Of a stretch of 64,000 nucleotides of DNA, positions 33,754-62,521 are shown piece by piece. Origin of the DNA: a virus; the IMG/VR virus record IMGVR_UViG_3300032282_004772. The stretch is one strand, 5' to 3'. The position numbers and the translations under genes were made by a program. The notes under the pieces were generated by a model, which had not been told where the DNA came from, searched no databases, and was given only the letters and a program-made list of their open reading frames with translations. Position 1 is the first letter of the stretch; each line of letters begins with the position of its first letter.

Positions 33754-35574
33754 TTATCTTAACTCTCTTAAATCGAATGTACGAACACCGTCCACTTGAA
33801 TACGTCCATAGAACCTGTTGTTCACCATTTTCTTAGCGTATCTAGTCATGATACCTTTGATTGGTGTAAAGTTAAATGGATTGTACATTGTAGGTGTTAA
33901 TTGTAGAGGTACATACGGAGCGTAGATGTAACCTGTGTCTAACAATGACGTACCTTTGTGTCCCATTAACACTGTGTTAGGTGGGAAATAAGGGTCACGA
34001 TAAACTTGGTAACGACCAGCTAAAGTACCTACTCTCTCAATACCCATGTTGTATTGGTCTTGCTCAGGTGAAGCGTTAGAAACGTGGAAGTATTCTAAGT
34101 CATCAAAGATAGCACTAATTTCAGATGATACAACAATCCAGTTAGCTCCACCACGAAGTGTTGACTTGTGAATTTGAGCAGATACTTGGTTGATTGCAGT
34201 AATCAATGTCTGATTCCAATCCTTCTGAGTATAAGAAGTTGTTTGAGATAATCTCTTCCATCCGTTGTAATCCCAACGTAATGTCCAAGCTGCACCTTTA
34301 CGTAAGTCACGTAAAATTTCACGGTCGATTTCAGCCGCCACTTGTTCAGACAATAAAGCCGTTAATTCAGCCTCAGCGTCGATGTTGTGGAATGCCGCAA
34401 CGTCCTGTGCTAATTCAGGTGACCATTGTGCTCTAAGTTTTCTTTCTGTAACAGAAACTGTTACTGACTCAAGGTCAAAAGAAACCTCACCAATTTTATC
34501 TTCAAACTCAAGTTCTTCATAACGTCTGTAAACAGCCGTGAAAGAACCTGTAGTTGCTACCGATGTTACACTTGTTCCAGTGTATCCGTCTAAAGAATCT
34601 GCTCCACAAGAAGCACATACAGGACACTGTAAATCTACTTCAAGGTAGATACATCCATCAGCTCCACAGATGTCGTAGAATTTACCACCATTTCCTGTAG
34701 AAGCGAAGTTAGTTTGATTCCATTGTCCATACTGAACAATACCTTTACCATATTGTTGTGTAACAACACGGAAAGGAAGTGCCGATGCAGTAAGGTCAGT
34801 ACATCCTGTTGCTGCATCTAATCCTGATGCCGCAATGATATAAAGGTCAGAAAGAAAAGCTTCAGAATCCATTTCATTACCGTCAGGTCCGATTAATTTA
34901 CCAGCACCTGTGTCAGCAAATCCACACATTTTGATAAGGATTTTTCTTACGTTTTTACCATCATATTCACCATCAGCATCAACTAATGAACCACCACTCC
35001 AAACCATAACAGTTGTATCAGAAGTGATAGCTGACCAACGACCTTTTGAATAATCAAAAAGACCTGCTGGGTCTAATGTAGGTTCAGCACCTTCATAGAA
35101 TAAATCATAAAGATTTTTCTTGTAATAGTTAGAACCACCGCCTGCAGGATATCCAGCATCTGGGTCTCCAGGGTAGTTACCAGGAGAACCTACAGGAGCG
35201 TAATGTTCACCTGAATAGTAAGTGTCAGCACTTACATAACCTTGGATACGTGGAACGAAGTAGAACAATTTACCGATAGGTAAGTTCATAGCTTGTACCG
35301 ATACGATATCGTTAGCTAAAAGTTTAGAGAATACCCTTCTTACGATAGGGAAAACTACTGTTTCAAACGAACCAGATGAATCTGTCGCTGAAGCTTCGTT
35401 GATTAAGAACGATGCTTGGTTTTCATATAACTGAGCAATGTTCTCTTTTAAGTGACCTTTAAGACCCTCAAGGAATCCTAATCTGTCCCATTTGTTAATT
35501 GTGTCTTCTTTGATAACCTTAAGGTGTTTCAAACCTATATTACCAACAAGACCGCTTTCTAATAATGCACCCAT
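33754..35574 (-). CDS. Major capsid protein (T4 gp23-like)
   Basis: VSVQAMNLPIG, RKLRAQWSPELAQD...DAEAEL, YAPYVPL, GIMTRY. Confidence 0.95.
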   Translation of the reverse strand: MGALLESGLVGNIGLKHLKVIKEDTINKWDRLGFLEGLKGHLKENIAQLYENQASFLINEASATDSSGSFETVVFPIVRRVFSKLLANDIVSVQAMNLPIGKLFYFVPRIQGYVSADTYYSGEHYAPVGSPGNYPGDPDAGYPAGGGSNYYKKNLYDLFYEGAEPTLDPAGLFDYSKGRWSAITSDTTVMVWSGGSLVDADGEYDGKNVRKILIKMCGFADTGAGKLIGPDGNEMDSEAFLSDLYIIAASGLDAATGCTDLTASALPFRVVTQQYGKGIVQYGQWNQTNFASTGNGGKFYDICGADGCIYLEVDLQCPVCASCGADSLDGYTGTSVTSVATTGSFTAVYRRYEELEFEDKIGEVSFDLESVTVSVTERKLRAQWSPELAQDVAAFHNIDAEAELTALLSEQVAAEIDREILRDLRKGAAWTLRWDYNGWKRLSQTTSYTQKDWNQTLITAINQVSAQIHKSTLRGGANWIVVSSEISAIFDDLEYFHVSNASPEQDQYNMGIERVGTLAGRYQVYRDPYFPPNTVLMGHKGTSLLDTGYIYAPYVPLQLTPTMYNPFNFTPIKGIMTRYAKKMVNNRFYGRIQVDGVRTFDLRELR

Positions 35575-39919: not shown

Positions 39920-41743
39920 TCAACTTCTGAGTATTTTATTCAATTGTTCTTCCATATCGCCTAAAGAAGTTCTTGCTTTTGATAAATCGATATAAGAATC
40001 CTCTTCTAACATATCGTTAGACTCTAATAAAATATTCAAATCTCTCTTTGAAATTGACTCAGGGGTTACTCCCGCTTCACCTCCTGGAGGGGTTTCTCCT
40101 CCCGCTGGCGGGGTAGGACCTGAAGATGTTGGTGTTGCACCTGCAGGCTCACTTTCTCCTCCAACTGAGGTTTCTCCACCCGTTGTGCCTGATGTACTTC
40201 CATATAGTTTATCTATATTTGCAAATATTCCTGTTTTTTGAATAACATTAGGAGTATTCTCAAGTTCTTTAGCAACCGCTCTTTCTATTCTTTGTTGTTG
40301 TAAATCAAGTTTAATTTCTTCATCAGAAAATCCTAAAACATGTTTTTTAGCCCACGATGTAGATACAGGTGCGATTCCTTCAATTGCGGTAACTGCGTCT
40401 TTGTATAATAATATTTTTTCTTTCCAAACGTCAACTTTTAATAAATCTGCCTGAGTTGAAGGATTTGTTAATGATAATGTAAAGTTTGATAGTTCATCCT
40501 CAAATCCTAATAAGAATAAATGAATGATGGCAATCTTATTTAATTCTGCCAACATACTTTTTTGAATTCTATTTATAGTTCTTGCAAATCTAATATCTTG
40601 TAATGATAAATTTTTTCCATCTCCGGTTGTTTCTTCAAAACCTAAAAACGCCTTTGGTACTCTTAACGCGGTTAATAATTTCTTTTGAATGTATTCTATA
40701 TCGGCAATCTCAGATAAATTTTGAGCGCCAGGAAGAGTATCAATTGGGTTTGGTTGTGCCGGGTCTCTAACGGGAACAAAGTAGTCTTGGTCTACCGCCA
40801 TTTGATTAAACCTCAAATCAACATTACCTGTTTTATTGTCAACAACTTGGTCTCTCTTAAATTTATTTGCAACACGTTGTACATACGCTTCAACATCTTT
40901 GTCGTCCATATTTCCAACAAACACTTTAAAGATTCTTCTTTCAGGAGCTCTTGATGTTCTATAAATCAACATGGCGTCTTCCGAGAGTAACAATTGTTTC
41001 CAAATTCTTCTCGCCTTTTCTAGCATTGAAGTTCCATATGGAAGTTTTCTATCATCACCTAACAAACGGAAATGAGCGATTTCCCATGTGTTAAAATCCA
41101 TATCTCTATTTTTCCACGCAAATTTTAACGCCTTTTGTTCGGATTCATTTTTTTCCATATTGGTTTTACCCTTCATTCCTCTCTCAATCCTTTCTATCTC
41201 AATGTTAGGTAATTGCATACATCCGACAACACCTTTTTCAGGGTCTAATTTTAAGTAGACAAAGTTGTCACCATATTTACAAGTATTTCTTGTCCACATG
41301 GCTAAATTTGTATTAATATCTAATGAATTATTAAATAAGTCAGTTAAAACTGATTTAATACGTTTTGACTCTGAATATATCTGTAAAATATAACCATTTT
41401 GGTCTGCCGTTGTTGATTCCTCTGCGTATATATCCAAAGCAGCTGAAATCTCAGGAGTATATTCCATAGATTCATAATCATAATAAGATGCCAATCTTGT
41501 TGGCTCAAAATAAACACCTTGGGTATATAGATTATTTTCTACTTTAGTCCATTGATTCGCTAAATAAAAGGTTTGTTGAGCCTGTAATTTGGACTTTTCA
41601 TACTCTTGTTTGTTTGTGGTTTTAAGTAACTCTTTTCTATCGTATTTAAAAACAGGATAATCTTGTCCGAGTAAAGAATTTGGGCCAAAAGTTTGCGATA
41701 ACCTTTGCCAAATCGTTAAATTATTTTTATTATCTTCAGCCAT
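39920..41743 (-). CDS. Portal protein (T4 gp20-like)
   Basis: PEISAALD, EDAMLIYRTSRAPERRIFKVFVGN, IDTLPGAQNL, DIRFARTI. Confidence 0.95.
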   Translation of the reverse strand: MAEDNKNNLTIWQRLSQTFGPNSLLGQDYPVFKYDRKELLKTTNKQEYEKSKLQAQQTFYLANQWTKVENNLYTQGVYFEPTRLASYYDYESMEYTPEISAALDIYAEESTTADQNGYILQIYSESKRIKSVLTDLFNNSLDINTNLAMWTRNTCKYGDNFVYLKLDPEKGVVGCMQLPNIEIERIERGMKGKTNMEKNESEQKALKFAWKNRDMDFNTWEIAHFRLLGDDRKLPYGTSMLEKARRIWKQLLLSEDAMLIYRTSRAPERRIFKVFVGNMDDKDVEAYVQRVANKFKRDQVVDNKTGNVDLRFNQMAVDQDYFVPVRDPAQPNPIDTLPGAQNLSEIADIEYIQKKLLTALRVPKAFLGFEETTGDGKNLSLQDIRFARTINRIQKSMLAELNKIAIIHLFLLGFEDELSNFTLSLTNPSTQADLLKVDVWKEKILLYKDAVTAIEGIAPVSTSWAKKHVLGFSDEEIKLDLQQQRIERAVAKELENTPNVIQKTGIFANIDKLYGSTSGTTGGETSVGGESEPAGATPTSSGPTPPAGGETPPGGEAGVTPESISKRDLNILLESNDMLEEDSYIDLSKARTSLGDMEEQLNKILRS

Positions 41744-41779: not shown

Positions 41780-43546
41780 TTATCTTGGTTTTCCGAATAA
41801 CCATAAATACTTTTGGTAATCACTTTTTGTTGATTCATTTTGTGTTGATATGTTTCTTGTTATTCCCGCTGGTAATACAGGGTTAAAACCTATATTTTTT
41901 GAAACATTTTCATTATTATTTACCTGCCAAGAATCAATCATTGCTTTAGTTTGTTCAGTGACTTTATTTAATTGAGTAAACGAATTTTCCCCAACATAAA
42001 TCGCCATACCAATCGCCATTATTAAATCATCATGATGTCCTTTTTGGTGGTCAGGTCTTCCATTAATATAAATAAAAGTATTCATCTCATTAAACAATCT
42101 ATTACTATAGATTTTAAATCCATGTCTCATTGCTTCTTCAAATGAAGAAATAATCTGAACTCTTTTATTATTAAAATTTATACCCGGTATTTTATCTAAC
42201 GCTTTTGCATCATATTTCCATTTATTTCCTAACTCAATTCCATCGACATATAAGTTTTTATACCCCATCTCTTGTAGTTTTCTTGATGTGGAAACCCCCA
42301 TTCCTCCTGTTATATCAACAACAATAAATGAATTATACATCATACCCCACTTGTATGCGACCTCTGCCGCAACATCAGGAGGGATTTTACCGACATATTC
42401 GGCAACCTGTTCTCTCTCATCAAAATCCACAATAATAAAAGACGTAAAGTCTTCAGAATCCCCTCTTGAAACATCGACTCCCATAATGTATTTGTGACCC
42501 GGTATTGGCTCTTTCCAAATCCATAATGAACCTCCCATCATTTTATTAACGGGTTCTTTTAACATATTATGATGTATAGACTGTAATTGTTTTGAATCAA
42601 AAACATTATCTCCCGAACCTAAAAAATTACACTCCAACTCTTGAGAAACTTTTCGTTTATCAAACTTTAATTTTTTAACCATCCCCTCAAACCAAGATGA
42701 AGTTGGTTTATATCCGTTTGCAATATGGTTTTTTATTTCATCAAAATTTCTTTCTCTTGGGTTAGTGTCGGCATAGTCTATGGTCTCAATGACACCATAA
42801 TCTTCTCGATTAAGATAATAATGAATCAAATCTTCAACTTTAATTAATTTTAAATCTTTTGTATATCTAGGGTCTTTAAACCAATAAAATTCAGATATTT
42901 TAAATTCATTCATACCTCTTAAGGCTTGGTCATATATTTCATAGTAGATTGGGTCGTATCCATTTGGAGTAGAAACAACAATAACTTTACCTCCTGTTGA
43001 TAATGATGCCATACATGCTGACCAAAAATCACTATCGGCCTCAATATAGGCAGCCTCATCAAAAATTAATATTGTTGGAGTATATCCTCGTAAAGCATCT
43101 TTAGATGTTGCAACGGCTTTTACTTCACATCCATTACTTAATTTATAATGTCTTTGTGAGTTTTTTTCTTTTGAAAATTCTACACCAGTCCAAGATGGCC
43201 ATTGTTCAGTAAATCCTCTTATTTTATTAGCCATCTCAACTGCCGTGTCTAATTTGTTGGCAATAATCAATATTTTTTCAGGTTTCTTTTTTGACGCAAA
43301 AACTATTTTCTTTGATGCCCAAGCCGCGGTTACGGTTGATACTCCCGCTTGTCGGTATTTCAATGCAATGTTTTCATTGTATTTTTCGTAATCTTCCAAT
43401 AGATTAATTTGGTCATCAAAAAGGTCTAACGGAACATATCTTGATACTAAGTTGTCATATGTTTGCAAGTATGTTCTAAGAGCATATGGCGTATTTAATA
43501 TACATTTTTTATACTCTAATATTAATTGTTCTTTAGTTAAGCTCAT
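41780..43546 (-). CDS. terL: Terminase large subunit
   Basis: LKYRQAGVST (deviant Walker A), LIFDEAA, STPNG, MGVDVSRG, HDDLIMA. Confidence 0.95.
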   Translation of the reverse strand: MSLTKEQLILEYKKCILNTPYALRTYLQTYDNLVSRYVPLDLFDDQINLLEDYEKYNENIALKYRQAGVSTVTAAWASKKIVFASKKKPEKILIIANKLDTAVEMANKIRGFTEQWPSWTGVEFSKEKNSQRHYKLSNGCEVKAVATSKDALRGYTPTILIFDEAAYIEADSDFWSACMASLSTGGKVIVVSTPNGYDPIYYEIYDQALRGMNEFKISEFYWFKDPRYTKDLKLIKVEDLIHYYLNREDYGVIETIDYADTNPRERNFDEIKNHIANGYKPTSSWFEGMVKKLKFDKRKVSQELECNFLGSGDNVFDSKQLQSIHHNMLKEPVNKMMGGSLWIWKEPIPGHKYIMGVDVSRGDSEDFTSFIIVDFDEREQVAEYVGKIPPDVAAEVAYKWGMMYNSFIVVDITGGMGVSTSRKLQEMGYKNLYVDGIELGNKWKYDAKALDKIPGINFNNKRVQIISSFEEAMRHGFKIYSNRLFNEMNTFIYINGRPDHQKGHHDDLIMAIGMAIYVGENSFTQLNKVTEQTKAMIDSWQVNNNENVSKNIGFNPVLPAGITRNISTQNESTKSDYQKYLWLFGKPR

Positions 43547-43560
43547 CATATATAAATAGT

Positions 43561-61252: not shown

Positions 61253-61510
61253 TTAATAATTATTTTTTTTACAGTATGTTTTTGATTGCGATTCAATCCA
61301 ATTTTCATCATTTTTAAATTCCTTCCAAGTATCAAAATCTTTCAATGATTCCAAAACTTCTGTTGGAATTAAAATAAATCCATCAGGCGCAATTCCCGAA
61401 TATTTGTAATAGTGGGAATTTTCCAATTTTTCTTTCATCATTTGACAAAATAACTCGTCTTTGATGAATTCATTATGTTCATCTTCTAAATAATTGTCTT
61501 GACTTCCCAT
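61253..61510 (-). CDS. Hypothetical protein
   Basis: 85 aa ORF; TATATTTG upstream. Confidence 0.55.
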   Translation of the reverse strand: MGSQDNYLEDEHNEFIKDELFCQMMKEKLENSHYYKYSGIAPDGFILIPTEVLESLKDFDTWKEFKNDENWIESQSKTYCKKNNY

Positions 61511-61566: not shown

Positions 61567-62157
61567 TTAATTTTTTTGTTTTAAATATCTATTTTTTCTT
61601 GCGGAATTTTTATTACGAGATTTGAAAGTACTTAATTGAGAATCACAATTAGGACAAACCAATCTTAAATTATTTCTATTGTTATTGGACGCATCTCCAT
61701 CTATATGGTCTAGAACAAATACTAGAATTTTTCCCATCCATTCATCATCCATATTACAAATAGCACATTTATGATTTTGTTCTTCTAAAAATTTTTTTTT
61801 AAAACTTCTTGGATTAAAATTTTCTCTACAATATTCTTGATTATTGTTGAGGAAATGTTCATATTTTTTTTTACTTAAATCTTTATGTTGACAATCTAAA
61901 GAACAATATTTTTTAGAAAAAAGATTACATTCTTTTTCACAATACACACATTTAATTATTTCGTATTTTTTACATTTACCATAATTGTGAGGCTTATATC
62001 CTTCAGGTATTTTTTTTCTGATTTTTAATTCAATTCCTAATTTTTTTGCAATTTTTTTTATGTAAGTATCAGAAACATTATATTTTTTTGCAATTTCAGT
62101 ATAAGGTAAATTTTTATTAAAGATTAAATCTTCTAAATCTTCTTTTATATATTTCAT
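61567..62157 (-). CDS. Free-standing HNH homing endonuclease
   Basis: HTH-like N-terminus, CxxC...YCSxxC, CAIC...LDHIDGDASNN...NLRLVCPNC. Confidence 0.85.
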   Translation of the reverse strand: MKYIKEDLEDLIFNKNLPYTEIAKKYNVSDTYIKKIAKKLGIELKIRKKIPEGYKPHNYGKCKKYEIIKCVYCEKECNLFSKKYCSLDCQHKDLSKKKYEHFLNNNQEYCRENFNPRSFKKKFLEEQNHKCAICNMDDEWMGKILVFVLDHIDGDASNNNRNNLRLVCPNCDSQLSTFKSRNKNSARKNRYLKQKN

Positions 62158-62193
62158 ATCTATATTTTACTATAAATATTACTATCGAACTGA

Positions 62194-62239
62194 AAATCAA
62201 AACGAACTACAATTTTTATTTTATAGTTCGTTTTGATTT
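62194..62239. repeat. Perfect 16-bp inverted repeat at tRNA-Arg 3' end
   Basis: AAATCAAAACGAACTA / TAGTTCGTTTTGATTT with 14-nt loop. Confidence 0.85.
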
Positions 62240-62521
62240 GGTGGTCCCGGGGCGATTCGAACGCCCGACCGACTGCTTAGACATACCACTATGACTTTCG
62301 TCACCCTTTTGGTTTGTGGTCTGGACTATATCATCATCCATTTTTAGGATGCTTCCCCCTTAGTCTCTACACACTTTCCTATTTGATAGGAGTTGGCTCG
62401 GTATTACCATCAGCATTATCTGTTAAGGTTTCACCGAATTCGAGAAGTTCTATATATGAATTACTTCATATACGCCCCCTTTACTTGAGGCAGTTGCTCT
62501 ATCCAGCTGAGCTACAGGACC
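62239..62521 (-). tRNA. tRNA-Arg(UCU), intron-containing (exons 62521-62488 and 62281-62239)
   Basis: Joined exons give GGUCCUG/CGGGACC acceptor, ACUGC-CU-UCU-AA-GCAGU arm, A20, encoded CCA. Confidence 0.9.
62282..62487 (-). ncRNA. Group I self-splicing intron (IC3-like), 206 nt
   Basis: P AAUUCGGUGAA, Q AAUACCGAGC, R GUAGAGACUA, S GAUAUAGUCC; U33.G wobble in P1; terminal G; GUAA/GAAA tetraloops. Confidence 0.9.

What the first reader, a model, noticed from the sequence alone, without database searches (positions are those of the whole stretch)
61567..62521. tRNA-Arg(UCU) split by a minimal group I intron at 33/34, next to a free-standing HNH nuclease
Seen: the two tRNA halves are separated by 206 nt carrying all P/Q/R/S core elements, P1 with a U33.G wobble (GCCUC/GGGGC), P2, P8 and P9 hairpins, and a terminal G. 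Splicing restores the UCU anticodon, and AGA is the dominant Arg codon in this window. Established: bacterial tRNA group I introns are known in Leu(UAA) 34/35, fMet 33/34, and Ile(CAU) and Arg(CCU) 36/37; Arg(UCU) at 33/34 in a phage is not among those classic sites. The intron has no ORF, but an HNH gene with its own late motif starts about 80 nt downstream. Inference: collaborative homing, where the nuclease cuts intron-less tRNA-Arg alleles of co-infecting phages and the intron protects self. The intron might also shield the precursor from anticodon nucleases. Standard tRNA finders may miss this gene.
Basis: partly seen in the sequence, partly recalled or inferred. Interest (0 to 1): 0.8.

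Follow-up and report, generated by a model that had tools for sequence, protein, structure and literature searches.

The report
Self-splicing intron splitting phage tRNA-Arg
A large phage's arginine tRNA gene (reading AGA, its main arginine codon) is split by a genuine group I self-splicing-type intron and followed by a mobile HNH nuclease gene; relatives show the two are separate selfish elements sharing one hot spot, not an obligate pair.

Summary
On the minus strand, tRNA-Arg(UCU) (62239-62521) is split after U33 by a 206-nt ORF-less group I intron (62282-62487). It scores 70.7 bits against Rfam Intron_gpI, and ARAGORN finds the gene only in intron mode. The same arrangement occurs in 13 sequence clusters of uncultured phage and metagenome contigs. 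Compensatory changes support both the ribozyme fold (25 pairs) and the cloverleaf spanning the two exons (11 pairs). The downstream ORF (61567-62157) is an HNH nuclease.

Collaborative homing is only partly supported. The closest relatives of this HNH sit in the same position beside intron-less tRNA-Arg(UCU) genes. Near-identical introns occur with no nuclease, or with other nuclease families on either side. However, the window's closest syntenic relatives lack both elements, and one keeps an intact target sequence.

My reading is that two independently mobile elements share a tRNA-Arg hot spot. Whether the nuclease cuts the intron insertion site is untested.

Bacterial tRNA-Arg(UCU) introns exist but sit one base later and form a separate clade. 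I found no paper describing group I introns in phage tRNA genes. This scan has already noted similar cases on other DNA (Ile2, Gln, Leu).

The parts
62239..62521 (-). tRNA-Arg(UCU) gene including the intron; 77 nt after splicing, with encoded CCA
   Evidence: ARAGORN with introns allowed. Across 13 lineages the cloverleaf is 99.6% paired, with 11 compensatory pairs that span both exons.
62488..62521 (-). 5' exon: acceptor 5' strand, D arm, anticodon-stem 5' strand, C32 and U33
   Evidence: It is 93% identical to the 5' half of the uninterrupted tRNA-Arg of L279.
62282..62487 (-). 206-nt ORF-less group I intron (core resembles IC3 tRNA introns) with P1-P9, U33.G in P1 and a terminal G
   Evidence: Rfam RF00028 70.7 bits, E 5e-18. 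Helices mapped. 96% of cells paired, 25 pairs changed on both sides, 0 of 500 shuffles as good, slid controls about 40% paired.
62239..62281 (-). 3' exon: U34 C35 U36 A37 A38, anticodon-stem 3' strand, variable loop, T arm, acceptor 3' strand, ACCA
62194..62238 (-). 19-bp hairpin directly after the CCA, followed by UUUU; terminator-like or a processing signal between the tRNA and the HNH
   Evidence: strand folding -21.8 kcal/mol, z -7.5. The consensus terminator scan did not call it.
62171..62178 (-). TATTTATA promoter-like motif 13 nt upstream of the HNH start codon
   Evidence: The same motif lies within 25 nt upstream of at least 9 ORFs of 300 aa or more (for example TerL, motif at 43551). 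The overall count is not significantly enriched.
61567..62157 (-). Free-standing HNH endonuclease gene, 196 aa: N-terminal helix-turn-helix, Cys-rich middle, C-terminal HNH with CxxC...DH...N...CxNC
   Evidence: PHROG 10822 E 5e-21. Pfam HNH_3 is below threshold at 21.7 against 24.8 bits. Invariant C131 C134 D150 H151 N163 C168 N170 C171 in 29 homologues. AF2 model pLDDT 86.7. Foldseek top hits are almost all HNH domains but weak (E 0.03 or worse).
61567..62179 (-). Extent of the mobile HNH cassette (promoter motif plus ORF), as shared with the closest homologous cassette
   Evidence: 71% nucleotide identity to L184 runs exactly over 62179-61567. The cassette is absent from syntenic relatives L278-L280.

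Best explanation
The window belongs to a large tailed phage. Its tRNA-Arg(UCU) gene is interrupted between U33 and U34 by a 206-nt group I intron. The intron's core is most like the IC3 introns of tRNA-Leu(UAA) genes. After transcription the intron is expected to fold and splice itself: exogenous guanosine attacks after the U33.G wobble pair of P1, and the terminal G then docks for exon ligation. The product would be an ordinary tRNA that reads AGA, which makes up 74% of the phage's Arg codons. The intron belongs to a phage-borne family found in 13 sequence clusters, all at the same site. Selection has kept both the ribozyme fold and the spliced tRNA. The gene 81 nt downstream is a free-standing HNH homing-endonuclease cassette with its own promoter-like motif. 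Its family specialises in flanking phage tRNA genes, and the branch closest to the window's copy flanks tRNA-Arg(UCU) whether or not an intron is present. The intron and the nuclease are therefore two separately mobile selfish elements that share one hot spot. At least four nuclease families use this hot spot in different phages. In the window's lineage both were gained relative to the nearest syntenic relatives. Shown here: the anatomy, the conservation and covariation, and the presence/absence patterns. Inferred, not shown: splicing itself, nuclease activity, and the nuclease's cut site.
For: Intron and tRNA: Rfam 70.7 bits and ARAGORN intron mode. 13 clusters at 93% identity come from IMG/VR and metagenome scans. 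The ribozyme fold has 25 compensatory pairs and is 96% paired against about 40% when slid. The cloverleaf across the exons has 11 compensatory pairs. Intron-less colinear allele: L279. Phage identity: major head protein, portal and TerL. AGA is 74% of Arg codons. HNH identity. Independence of the two elements, four lines. (1) Window-type HNH sits 60-97 nt downstream of intron-less tRNA-Arg(tct) in L185-189, L192, L194 and L202-205, and just upstream of it in L190, L200 and L217. (2) A second HNH family abuts the 3' end of both intron-bearing and intron-less tRNA-Arg. (3) Within near-identical intron clusters the state varies: no nuclease (L016, L148), window-type HNH upstream (L017, L019), or the second family downstream (L151, L161). 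(4) A PHROG-314 homing endonuclease occupies the same spot in L143. Gain in this lineage: L278-L280 have tRNA-Arg directly followed by the homologue of window ORF 61253-61510, with no intron and no HNH. Only one HNH of these families lies in the 64 kb, so adjacency is not a density effect.
Against: There are no RNA data, so splicing and the exact junction rest on sequence rules and on colinearity with intron-less alleles. The whole-window Rfam gathering run did not report the intron. The HNH is below Pfam's threshold, has no sequence hit in the PDB, and its fold matches are weak. The independence argument uses homologues at 47-64% identity, whose specificity may differ from the window's enzyme. 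In the window's own lineage the pattern is 'both or neither', though this is a single intron-bearing genome against three relatives. That pattern is what joint mobility would give.
Confidence: 0.72

Rival explanations
1. Strict collaborative homing. The HNH cuts intron-less tRNA-Arg(UCU) alleles of co-infecting phages at or next to the intron insertion site. The intron splits the recognition site and so protects the carrier. Repair then copies the intron and the nuclease gene together.
For: The window's closest syntenic relatives lack both elements, and L279 keeps a 38-nt stretch identical to the window's ligated exons around the insertion site, so it is a ready target. All 13 intron clusters share the same anticodon arm. 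None of about 13 distinct nuclease-adjacent intron-less tRNA-Arg genes has that arm; all are divergent and AT-rich. An HNH of the same family sits inside tRNA-Leu(UAA) introns of related huge phages (L009). In L193 a window-type HNH ORF lies exactly in the anticodon loop of a split tRNA-Arg(UCU). Precedents are described in PMC3984707.
Against: The nuclease family lives beside intron-less tRNA-Arg genes in many phages, and introns occur without any nuclease. Near-identical introns carry different nucleases on different sides, which is hard to explain if each nuclease could enter only by cutting an intron-less allele. The divergent arms of nuclease-adjacent tRNAs come from phage groups whose Arg tRNA is AT-rich along its whole length, so phylogeny confounds the pattern.
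Confidence: 0.25
2. The intron is a decaying relic and the tRNA gene is dead. The phage relies on host tRNA-Arg(UCU).
For: No expression data exist. The window's intron is the most divergent member (77% identity or less to others). Its P8 is shortened, and its L6 and L9 loops are not GNRA.
Against: Every core helix is intact in the window copy. All catalytic-core columns (P7, J8/7 region, P9.0) are invariant across 13 lineages. The stems covary, including exon-exon pairs of the acceptor and anticodon stems. AGA is the main Arg codon.
Confidence: 0.05
3. The intron serves the phage. It could time tRNA-Arg supply, or protect the gene or its precursor from host anticodon nucleases or tRNA-directed defences.
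For: The intron is long-lived and widespread in phages at one site. Phage tRNA loci are known battlegrounds (PMC13096335, listed; abstract only read).
Against: The spliced tRNA is identical to what an uninterrupted gene would give, so the mature tRNA gains no protection. Close relatives manage without the intron. Presence/absence polymorphism and association with homing endonucleases are typical of selfish elements.
Confidence: 0.07

Closest known systems
[quoted passage not shown]
   Same: A small ORF-less group I intron in a tRNA anticodon loop, with P1 built from the anticodon-stem 5' strand. The core sequences are alike: about 70% identity over 160 nt to a tRNA-Leu(UAA) intron in a 735-kb phage. 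In a tree of intron cores the phage Arg clade groups with Leu/Tyr/Thr introns (support 0.95).
   Different: The host gene is tRNA-Arg(UCU), not Leu. The site is 33/34, not 34/35. The carrier is a phage, not a bacterium or plastid.
Bacterial tRNA-Arg(UCU) group I introns (Beggiatoa BOGUAY and Thiomargarita, PMC4853749; also 14 of the 120 intron-split tRNA genes classified)
   Same: Same tRNA isoacceptor, same kind of ribozyme, very similar 3' tail.
   Different: The bacterial ones are inserted after U34 (exon ends CCUU, 3' exon starts CUAAGCC). They form a separate, well-supported clade. The phage site is one base upstream. The phage junction pattern gave a single hit in 185,579 species genomes, on a 922-nt contig of a MAG.
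Collaborative homing of an ORF-less intron with a neighbouring free-standing endonuclease (two phage systems reviewed in PMC3984707; F-CphI of cyanophage S-PM2, PMC6083498)
   Same: [quoted passage not shown] The window HNH even gives a weak Endonuclease VII match, like F-CphI (PMC6083498 abstract).
   Different: The target here is a tRNA gene, not a protein gene. The comparative data show the nuclease and the intron each occurring without the other. The cut site is unknown.
Free-standing homing endonucleases in phage tRNA clusters (T4 SegB; PMC2988022, PMC13096335)
   Same: A nuclease cassette with its own promoter is wedged between tRNA genes. It shows presence/absence polymorphism between related phages, and a subfamily is tied to a particular neighbouring tRNA.
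   Different: SegB is GIY-YIG while this is HNH. No intron is involved in the T4 case.
'Enigmatic' tRNA introns of Lak megaphages (Devoto et al. 2019, PMC6784885)
   Same: Introns in phage tRNA genes, conserved across genomes, with presence/absence variation.
   Different: The Lak introns were not classified as group I, and one appears tRNA-shaped. The window's intron is a canonical group I ribozyme.

Membership tests
Group I intron (Rfam RF00028) | Covariance-model score above the curated gathering threshold | tested here: met
   70.7 bits against 50, E 5e-18, full model 1-253. Not listed in the whole-window gathering run.
Group I intron (Rfam RF00028) | 5' splice site after a U that forms a U.G wobble in P1; terminal G before the 3' splice site | tested here: met
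   U33.G45 is invariant in 13 of 13 lineages. The last intron base is G in all.
Group I intron (Rfam RF00028) | Conserved core helices P3-P8 with the P3/P7 pseudoknot, supported by covariation | tested here: met
   P3 has 4 of 6 pairs changed on both sides, P2 7 of 8, P6a 4 of 5, P8 2 of 4, P9a 3 of 3. P7 and P9.0 are invariant and fully paired.
Group I intron (Rfam RF00028) | Self-splicing with guanosine cofactor | not testable with these tools
   Needs in vitro transcription and a splicing assay.
Subgroup IC3 tRNA introns | Sequence and structure kinship with the bacterial tRNA introns that the intron database classes as IC3 | tested here: inconclusive
   Nearest relatives by BLAST and tree are tRNA-Leu(UAA)-type introns, which Williams 2020 reports as IC3. 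No formal subgroup classifier was run.
tRNA-Arg(UCU) | Cloverleaf with a 7-nt anticodon loop CU-UCU-AA after removal of the intron | tested here: met
   ARAGORN intron mode. 21 stem pairs are 99.6% paired in 13 lineages.
tRNA-Arg(UCU) | Arginine identity and aminoacylation | not testable with these tools
   Only the anticodon and A at the discriminator position are seen.
HNH (beta-beta-alpha-Me) endonuclease | Profile match above the curated threshold | tested here: inconclusive
   Pfam HNH_3 scores 21.7 against 24.8 bits. PHROG HNH families reach E 5e-21. The short homologue in L017 passes Pfam HNH at 22.7 against 21.4.
HNH (beta-beta-alpha-Me) endonuclease | Catalytic His after Asp, conserved Asn residues, two CxxC zinc-binding pairs | tested here: met
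   C131, C134, D150, H151, N163, C168, N170 and C171 are invariant in 29 sequences.
HNH (beta-beta-alpha-Me) endonuclease | Fold similarity to solved HNH nucleases | tested here: inconclusive
   Model pLDDT is 86.7. Top Foldseek hits are Cap5, PacI, GVE2 HNH, Cas9 HNH, McrA and T4 endo VII, but all at E 0.03 or worse.
Collaborative homing pair (ORF-less intron + free-standing endonuclease) | ORF-less intron and free-standing nuclease gene adjacent in one genome | tested here: met
   81 nt apart.
Collaborative homing pair (ORF-less intron + free-standing endonuclease) | Nuclease and intron co-occur across relatives | tested here: not met
   HNH occurs beside intron-less tRNA-Arg and introns occur without a nuclease. 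Only the window's immediate lineage shows both-or-neither.
Collaborative homing pair (ORF-less intron + free-standing endonuclease) | Nuclease cleaves the intron-less allele at the intron insertion site and spares the intron-containing allele | not testable with these tools
   Needs a cleavage assay on L279-type and window-type DNA.

The most novel reading that the evidence does not exclude
Phage tRNA-Arg(UCU) genes are the object of an arms race with several families of tRNA-gene-targeting homing endonucleases that recognise the conserved anticodon arm. Phages escape cutting in one of two ways. Either a group I intron splits the arm, acting as an immunity element that then spreads with the nuclease, or the whole tRNA cassette is replaced by a divergent one, as in L278 against L279. 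This would give the phage tRNA introns a selective rationale beyond pure selfishness.
Probability: 0.25. Interest if true: 0.75.

Novelty: new member of a known kind. Interest (0 to 1): 0.55.

Why it matters
A 2014 review stated that all phage group I introns then known lie in protein-coding genes, despite the many phage tRNA genes (PMC3984707). The only report of phage tRNA introns I found calls them enigmatic (Lak phages, PMC6784885). Here a canonical group I ribozyme sits in a phage tRNA gene. It is one of a widespread family with strong covariation support. Practically, default tRNA finders and a routine Rfam pass miss the gene, so tRNA inventories of large phages are undercounted, here for the phage's main Arg codon. 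The natural variants are ready-made material for testing how introns and free-standing nucleases come together. They include intron plus or minus, four nuclease families plus or minus, and an intron-less relative with an intact target sequence. The ribozyme itself is ordinary, and this scan has already seen analogous phage cases.

Tried and rejected
1. Default ARAGORN and the Rfam gathering run on the whole window find neither the tRNA nor the intron. The region had to be searched alone or with introns allowed.
2. Rfam on L001, which holds a clear tRNA-Leu(UAA) intron, returned nothing at E 0.001 or better. Negative Rfam results on loci (for example L193 and L204) are therefore weak evidence.
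3. I considered that the phage intron is a one-base-slid descendant of the bacterial Arg(UCU) 34/35 intron, because the 3' tails look alike. I rejected this because the two form separate clades (supports 0.99 and 1.0).
4. An alternative reading as tRNA-Arg(CCU), with the exon ending CCUC, is rejected. It needs a C before the 5' splice site and a U as the last intron base.
6. The sequence search of the PDB with the HNH gave only an HTH regulator at E 0.2.
7. The consensus terminator scan did not call the hairpin after the tRNA. Direct folding did.
8. Literature searches for phage tRNA group I introns found no description. Table 1 of Williams 2020 is an image, so I cannot tell whether 'Arg.2Ug' is among its 21 bacterial settings.

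Full report
WHAT IS THERE. The feature lies on the minus strand. Read 5' to 3', a 34-nt tRNA 5' half (62521-62488) ends in the anticodon-stem strand plus C32 and U33. A 206-nt insert follows (62487-62282); it begins with C and ends with G. A 43-nt 3' half (62281-62239) then begins UCUAAGC and ends in an encoded CCA. Default ARAGORN and the Rfam tRNA model do not see this gene. With introns allowed, ARAGORN calls tRNA-Arg(tct), 77 nt after removal of a 206-nt intron, with a regular cloverleaf. Searched on its own, the region matches Rfam Intron_gpI over the whole model at 70.7 bits (gathering 50), E 5e-18. The whole-window gathering run had not listed it, so routine annotation would miss both the intron and the tRNA.

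THE WINDOW IS A PHAGE. ORFs at 33754-35574, 39920-41743 and 41780-43549 match major head, portal and large terminase families. The window also carries a tmRNA and five other tRNAs. G+C is about 30%. AGA is 74% of Arg codons in ORFs of 150 aa or more, and no other tRNA-Arg is in the window.

THE INTRON IS ONE OF A FAMILY, AND SELECTION KEEPS IT FOLDED. Pattern scans of IMG/VR and of JGI metagenomes, using the intron core or the 3' junction, returned about 50 loci with the same layout: exon ending GCCU, intron, then UCUAAGC. These fall into 13 clusters at 93% identity. The window's copy is a lineage of its own, at most 77% identical to the others.

I mapped the helices on the window sequence using the Rfam alignment and comparison. 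They are:
- P1, 5 bp, including U33.G
- P2 with a GNRA loop
- P3, P4, P5, P6/P6a
- P7 with a bulged A
- P8
- P9.0, which closes the P9 domain
- P9 and P9a

On an alignment of the 13 cluster representatives, 96% of pair cells are standard pairs, against about 40% when partners are slid. 25 of 58 pairs show changes on both sides, and 0 of 500 shuffles reach the observed values. P7 and P9.0 never vary, as expected for the catalytic core. The cloverleaf formed by the two exons is 99.6% paired with 11 compensatory pairs, including pairs that join the 5' and 3' exons. This argues against a dead gene. The window's version is 'minimal' because P8 is 9 nt shorter than in most relatives.

HOW THE SITE COMPARES. 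ARAGORN in intron mode then classified the exons. The introns lie in:
- Leu(UAA) 34/35: 32
- Met(CAU) 33/34: 14
- Arg(UCU): 14
- Thr(UGU), Tyr(GUA), Arg(CCU) 36/37, Ser(GCU) and others

So bacterial tRNA introns are far more varied than the four classic cases, as Williams (bioRxiv 10.1101/2020.01.27.920355) also reports with 21 settings. tRNA-Arg(UCU) introns were already noted in Beggiatoa and Thiomargarita (PMC4853749). All 14 bacterial Arg(UCU) introns sit after U34 (exon ends CCUU, 3' exon starts CUAAGCC). The phage ones sit after U33.

A FastTree of intron cores puts the 13 phage representatives in one clade (support 0.99). That clade sits with Leu(UAA), Tyr and Thr introns (0.95). The bacterial Arg(UCU) introns form a separate clade (1.0). 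The tree rests on 194 columns and ARAGORN labels, so it is indicative only. The exact phage junction pattern occurs once in the species genomes, on a 922-nt contig of a Bacteroidia MAG. In Williams' nomenclature the window's intron would be 'Arg.2Ug'. I could not see whether his table includes it.

THE NUCLEASE. ORF 61567-62157 (196 aa) starts 81 nt after the CCA. A 19-bp hairpin followed by U's lies between them (-21.8 kcal/mol, z -7.5). The protein matches PHROG HNH families (E 5e-21). It is just under Pfam's HNH_3 threshold and gives a weak Endonuclease VII match. In 29 homologues, C131, C134, D150, H151, N163, C168, N170 and C171 are invariant. This is the two-CxxC plus DH...N...N signature of HNH enzymes. 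An AlphaFold model (pLDDT 86.7) finds mostly HNH domains in the PDB (Cap5, PacI, GVE2 HNH, Cas9 HNH, McrA, T4 endo VII), but only at E 0.03 or worse. TATTTATA lies 13 nt before the ATG, and the same octamer lies within 25 nt upstream of at least nine long ORFs including TerL. This fits a phage promoter, although the octamer is not enriched overall. Nucleotide similarity to the closest homologous cassette (L184, 71%) runs exactly from 62179 to 61567, which delimits the mobile unit.

DO THE INTRON AND THE NUCLEASE BELONG TOGETHER? Four observations bear on this.

First, homologues of the window's HNH in IMG/VR are overwhelmingly wedged between phage tRNA genes. Those most like the window's (47-57% identity) lie 60-97 nt downstream of an uninterrupted tRNA-Arg(tct) on the same strand (L185-189, L192, L194, L202-205). 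That is the window's layout minus the intron. Others lie 11-14 nt upstream of one (L190, L200, L217). More distant homologues flank His, Lys, Ile(UAU), Asn, Ser or Asp tRNAs. The very closest (L184, 64%) follows an aberrant tRNA-Arg(UCU)-like gene.

Second, among the intron-bearing loci the neighbours vary:
- window-type HNH downstream (window, L159) or upstream (L017, L019, L176)
- a second HNH family, 22% identical to the window's, convergent and abutting the tRNA 3' end in five clusters
- a third HNH upstream in one cluster
- a PHROG-314 homing endonuclease downstream in L143
- nothing recognisable in several clusters

Within one cluster of near-identical introns, all three states occur: none, window-type upstream, and second family downstream.

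Third, the second HNH family also abuts intron-less tRNA-Arg(tct) genes (L267-269). Each element occurs without the other, so neither needs the other to reside at this locus.

Fourth, and pointing the other way, the closest syntenic relatives of the window (L278, L279, L280) have an uninterrupted tRNA-Arg followed within 14-80 nt by the homologue of window ORF 61253-61510. They have neither intron nor HNH. They share the small membrane ORF upstream and three ORFs downstream. L279's tRNA is identical to the window's ligated exons over 38 nt around the insertion site. All intron-bearing genes share that anticodon arm, whereas every nuclease-adjacent intron-less tRNA-Arg has a different, AT-rich arm. 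That is what one would see if the nucleases recognised this arm. It is also what one would see if those phages simply have AT-rich tRNAs, which appears to be the case along the whole length of their Arg tRNAs.

I therefore rate strict collaborative homing at about 0.25. 'Two independently mobile elements sharing a nuclease hot spot at tRNA-Arg(UCU)' is my best-supported reading, at about 0.72.

OTHER IDEAS. The suggestion that the intron shields the precursor from anticodon nucleases has nothing for it, because the spliced product is an ordinary tRNA. A relic or pseudogene reading is contradicted by the covariation.

WHAT IS KNOWN. Hausner, Hafez and Edgell (PMC3984707) wrote in 2014 that all phage introns then known were in protein-coding genes. 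Devoto et al. (PMC6784885) reported 'enigmatic' introns in Lak-phage tRNAs and believed phage tRNA introns had not been reported before; they did not class them as group I. My searches of the held library found no description of group I introns in phage tRNA genes. Subscription journals are mostly not held, so this is not proof of absence. This scan has already recorded analogous cases on other DNA: phage tRNA-Ile2, tRNA-Gln and tRNA-Leu with group I introns and neighbouring or internal HNH genes.

VERDICT. The ribozyme and the tRNA are almost certainly functional. The nuclease is a tRNA-locus homing endonuclease. The collaboration between the two is possible but not required by the data. It is a new member (new host gene, new site, phage carrier) of a known kind.

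Noticed in passing
L193:2319-3156 (IMG/VR contig 3300045988_055655, 186 kb): A tRNA-Arg(UCU) with perfectly matching halves is split in the anticodon loop by 764 nt that hold a window-type HNH ORF. There is no Rfam group I hit and no G before the 3' exon. The insert's 3' end looks like a tRNA T arm. It may be one of the 'tRNA-shaped' HNH inserts that this scan noted elsewhere.
   Followed up: partly
L278:2842-3010 against L279:2840-3010: Two related phages have near-identical flanks on both sides but completely different tRNA-Arg(UCU) genes: an AT-rich divergent one against the window-like one. It is a clean cassette swap confined to the tRNA.
   Followed up: partly
L143:10707-11375: A 223-aa homing endonuclease (PHROG 314, E 2e-40; the N-terminus reads like GIY-YIG by eye) lies 49 nt downstream of an intron-bearing tRNA-Arg. 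This is the spot that holds a window-type HNH in the sister contig L159.
   Followed up: partly
L003:1462-1524 and L014:8419-8481 against window 62393-62455: An intron in 363-kb and 108-kb phage contigs has an upstream part that resembles the tRNA-Leu(UAA) intron of L001. It shares a 46-nt identical stretch (94% over 63 nt, P4-P5 region) with the window's Arg intron but differs elsewhere. This suggests module exchange between phage tRNA introns.
   Followed up: no
L001:2470-2740 (LR756501, 735-kb phage) and L009:10450-11250: Huge-phage tRNA-Leu(UAA) genes carry classic-site 34/35 group I introns. The L009 intron carries an HNH ORF (ARAGORN intron length 695 nt). The same L009 cluster has an intron-less tRNA-Arg(UCU) with the intact target arm.
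   Followed up: partly
L184:2320-2445: Upstream of the closest HNH homologue lies a tRNA-Arg(UCU)-like gene. By eye it has about 20 extra nt between the D arm and the anticodon stem, and a long variable region. ARAGORN and Rfam miss it.
   Followed up: no
L196, L204, L213 (HNH matches starting at 2501): Some window-type HNH homologues contain one or two in-frame stop codons. They are either decaying copies or lie in phages with a reassigned stop codon.
   Followed up: no
L022-L141 (genome contigs): Group I introns with this type of core interrupt many bacterial tRNAs beyond the four classic ones: Thr(UGU) and Tyr(GUA) in Clostridia MAGs, Ser(GCU), Leu(CAA), Arg(UCU) in Gammaproteobacteria, Neobacillus and Caldilineales. 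The ARAGORN labels were not checked individually.
   Followed up: partly
window 3 and 5 (calls); L001: Rfam's speed filters hide bona fide tRNA group I introns. The window's 70.7-bit match is absent from the 64-kb gathering run, and the L001 intron is not found at all.
   Followed up: yes
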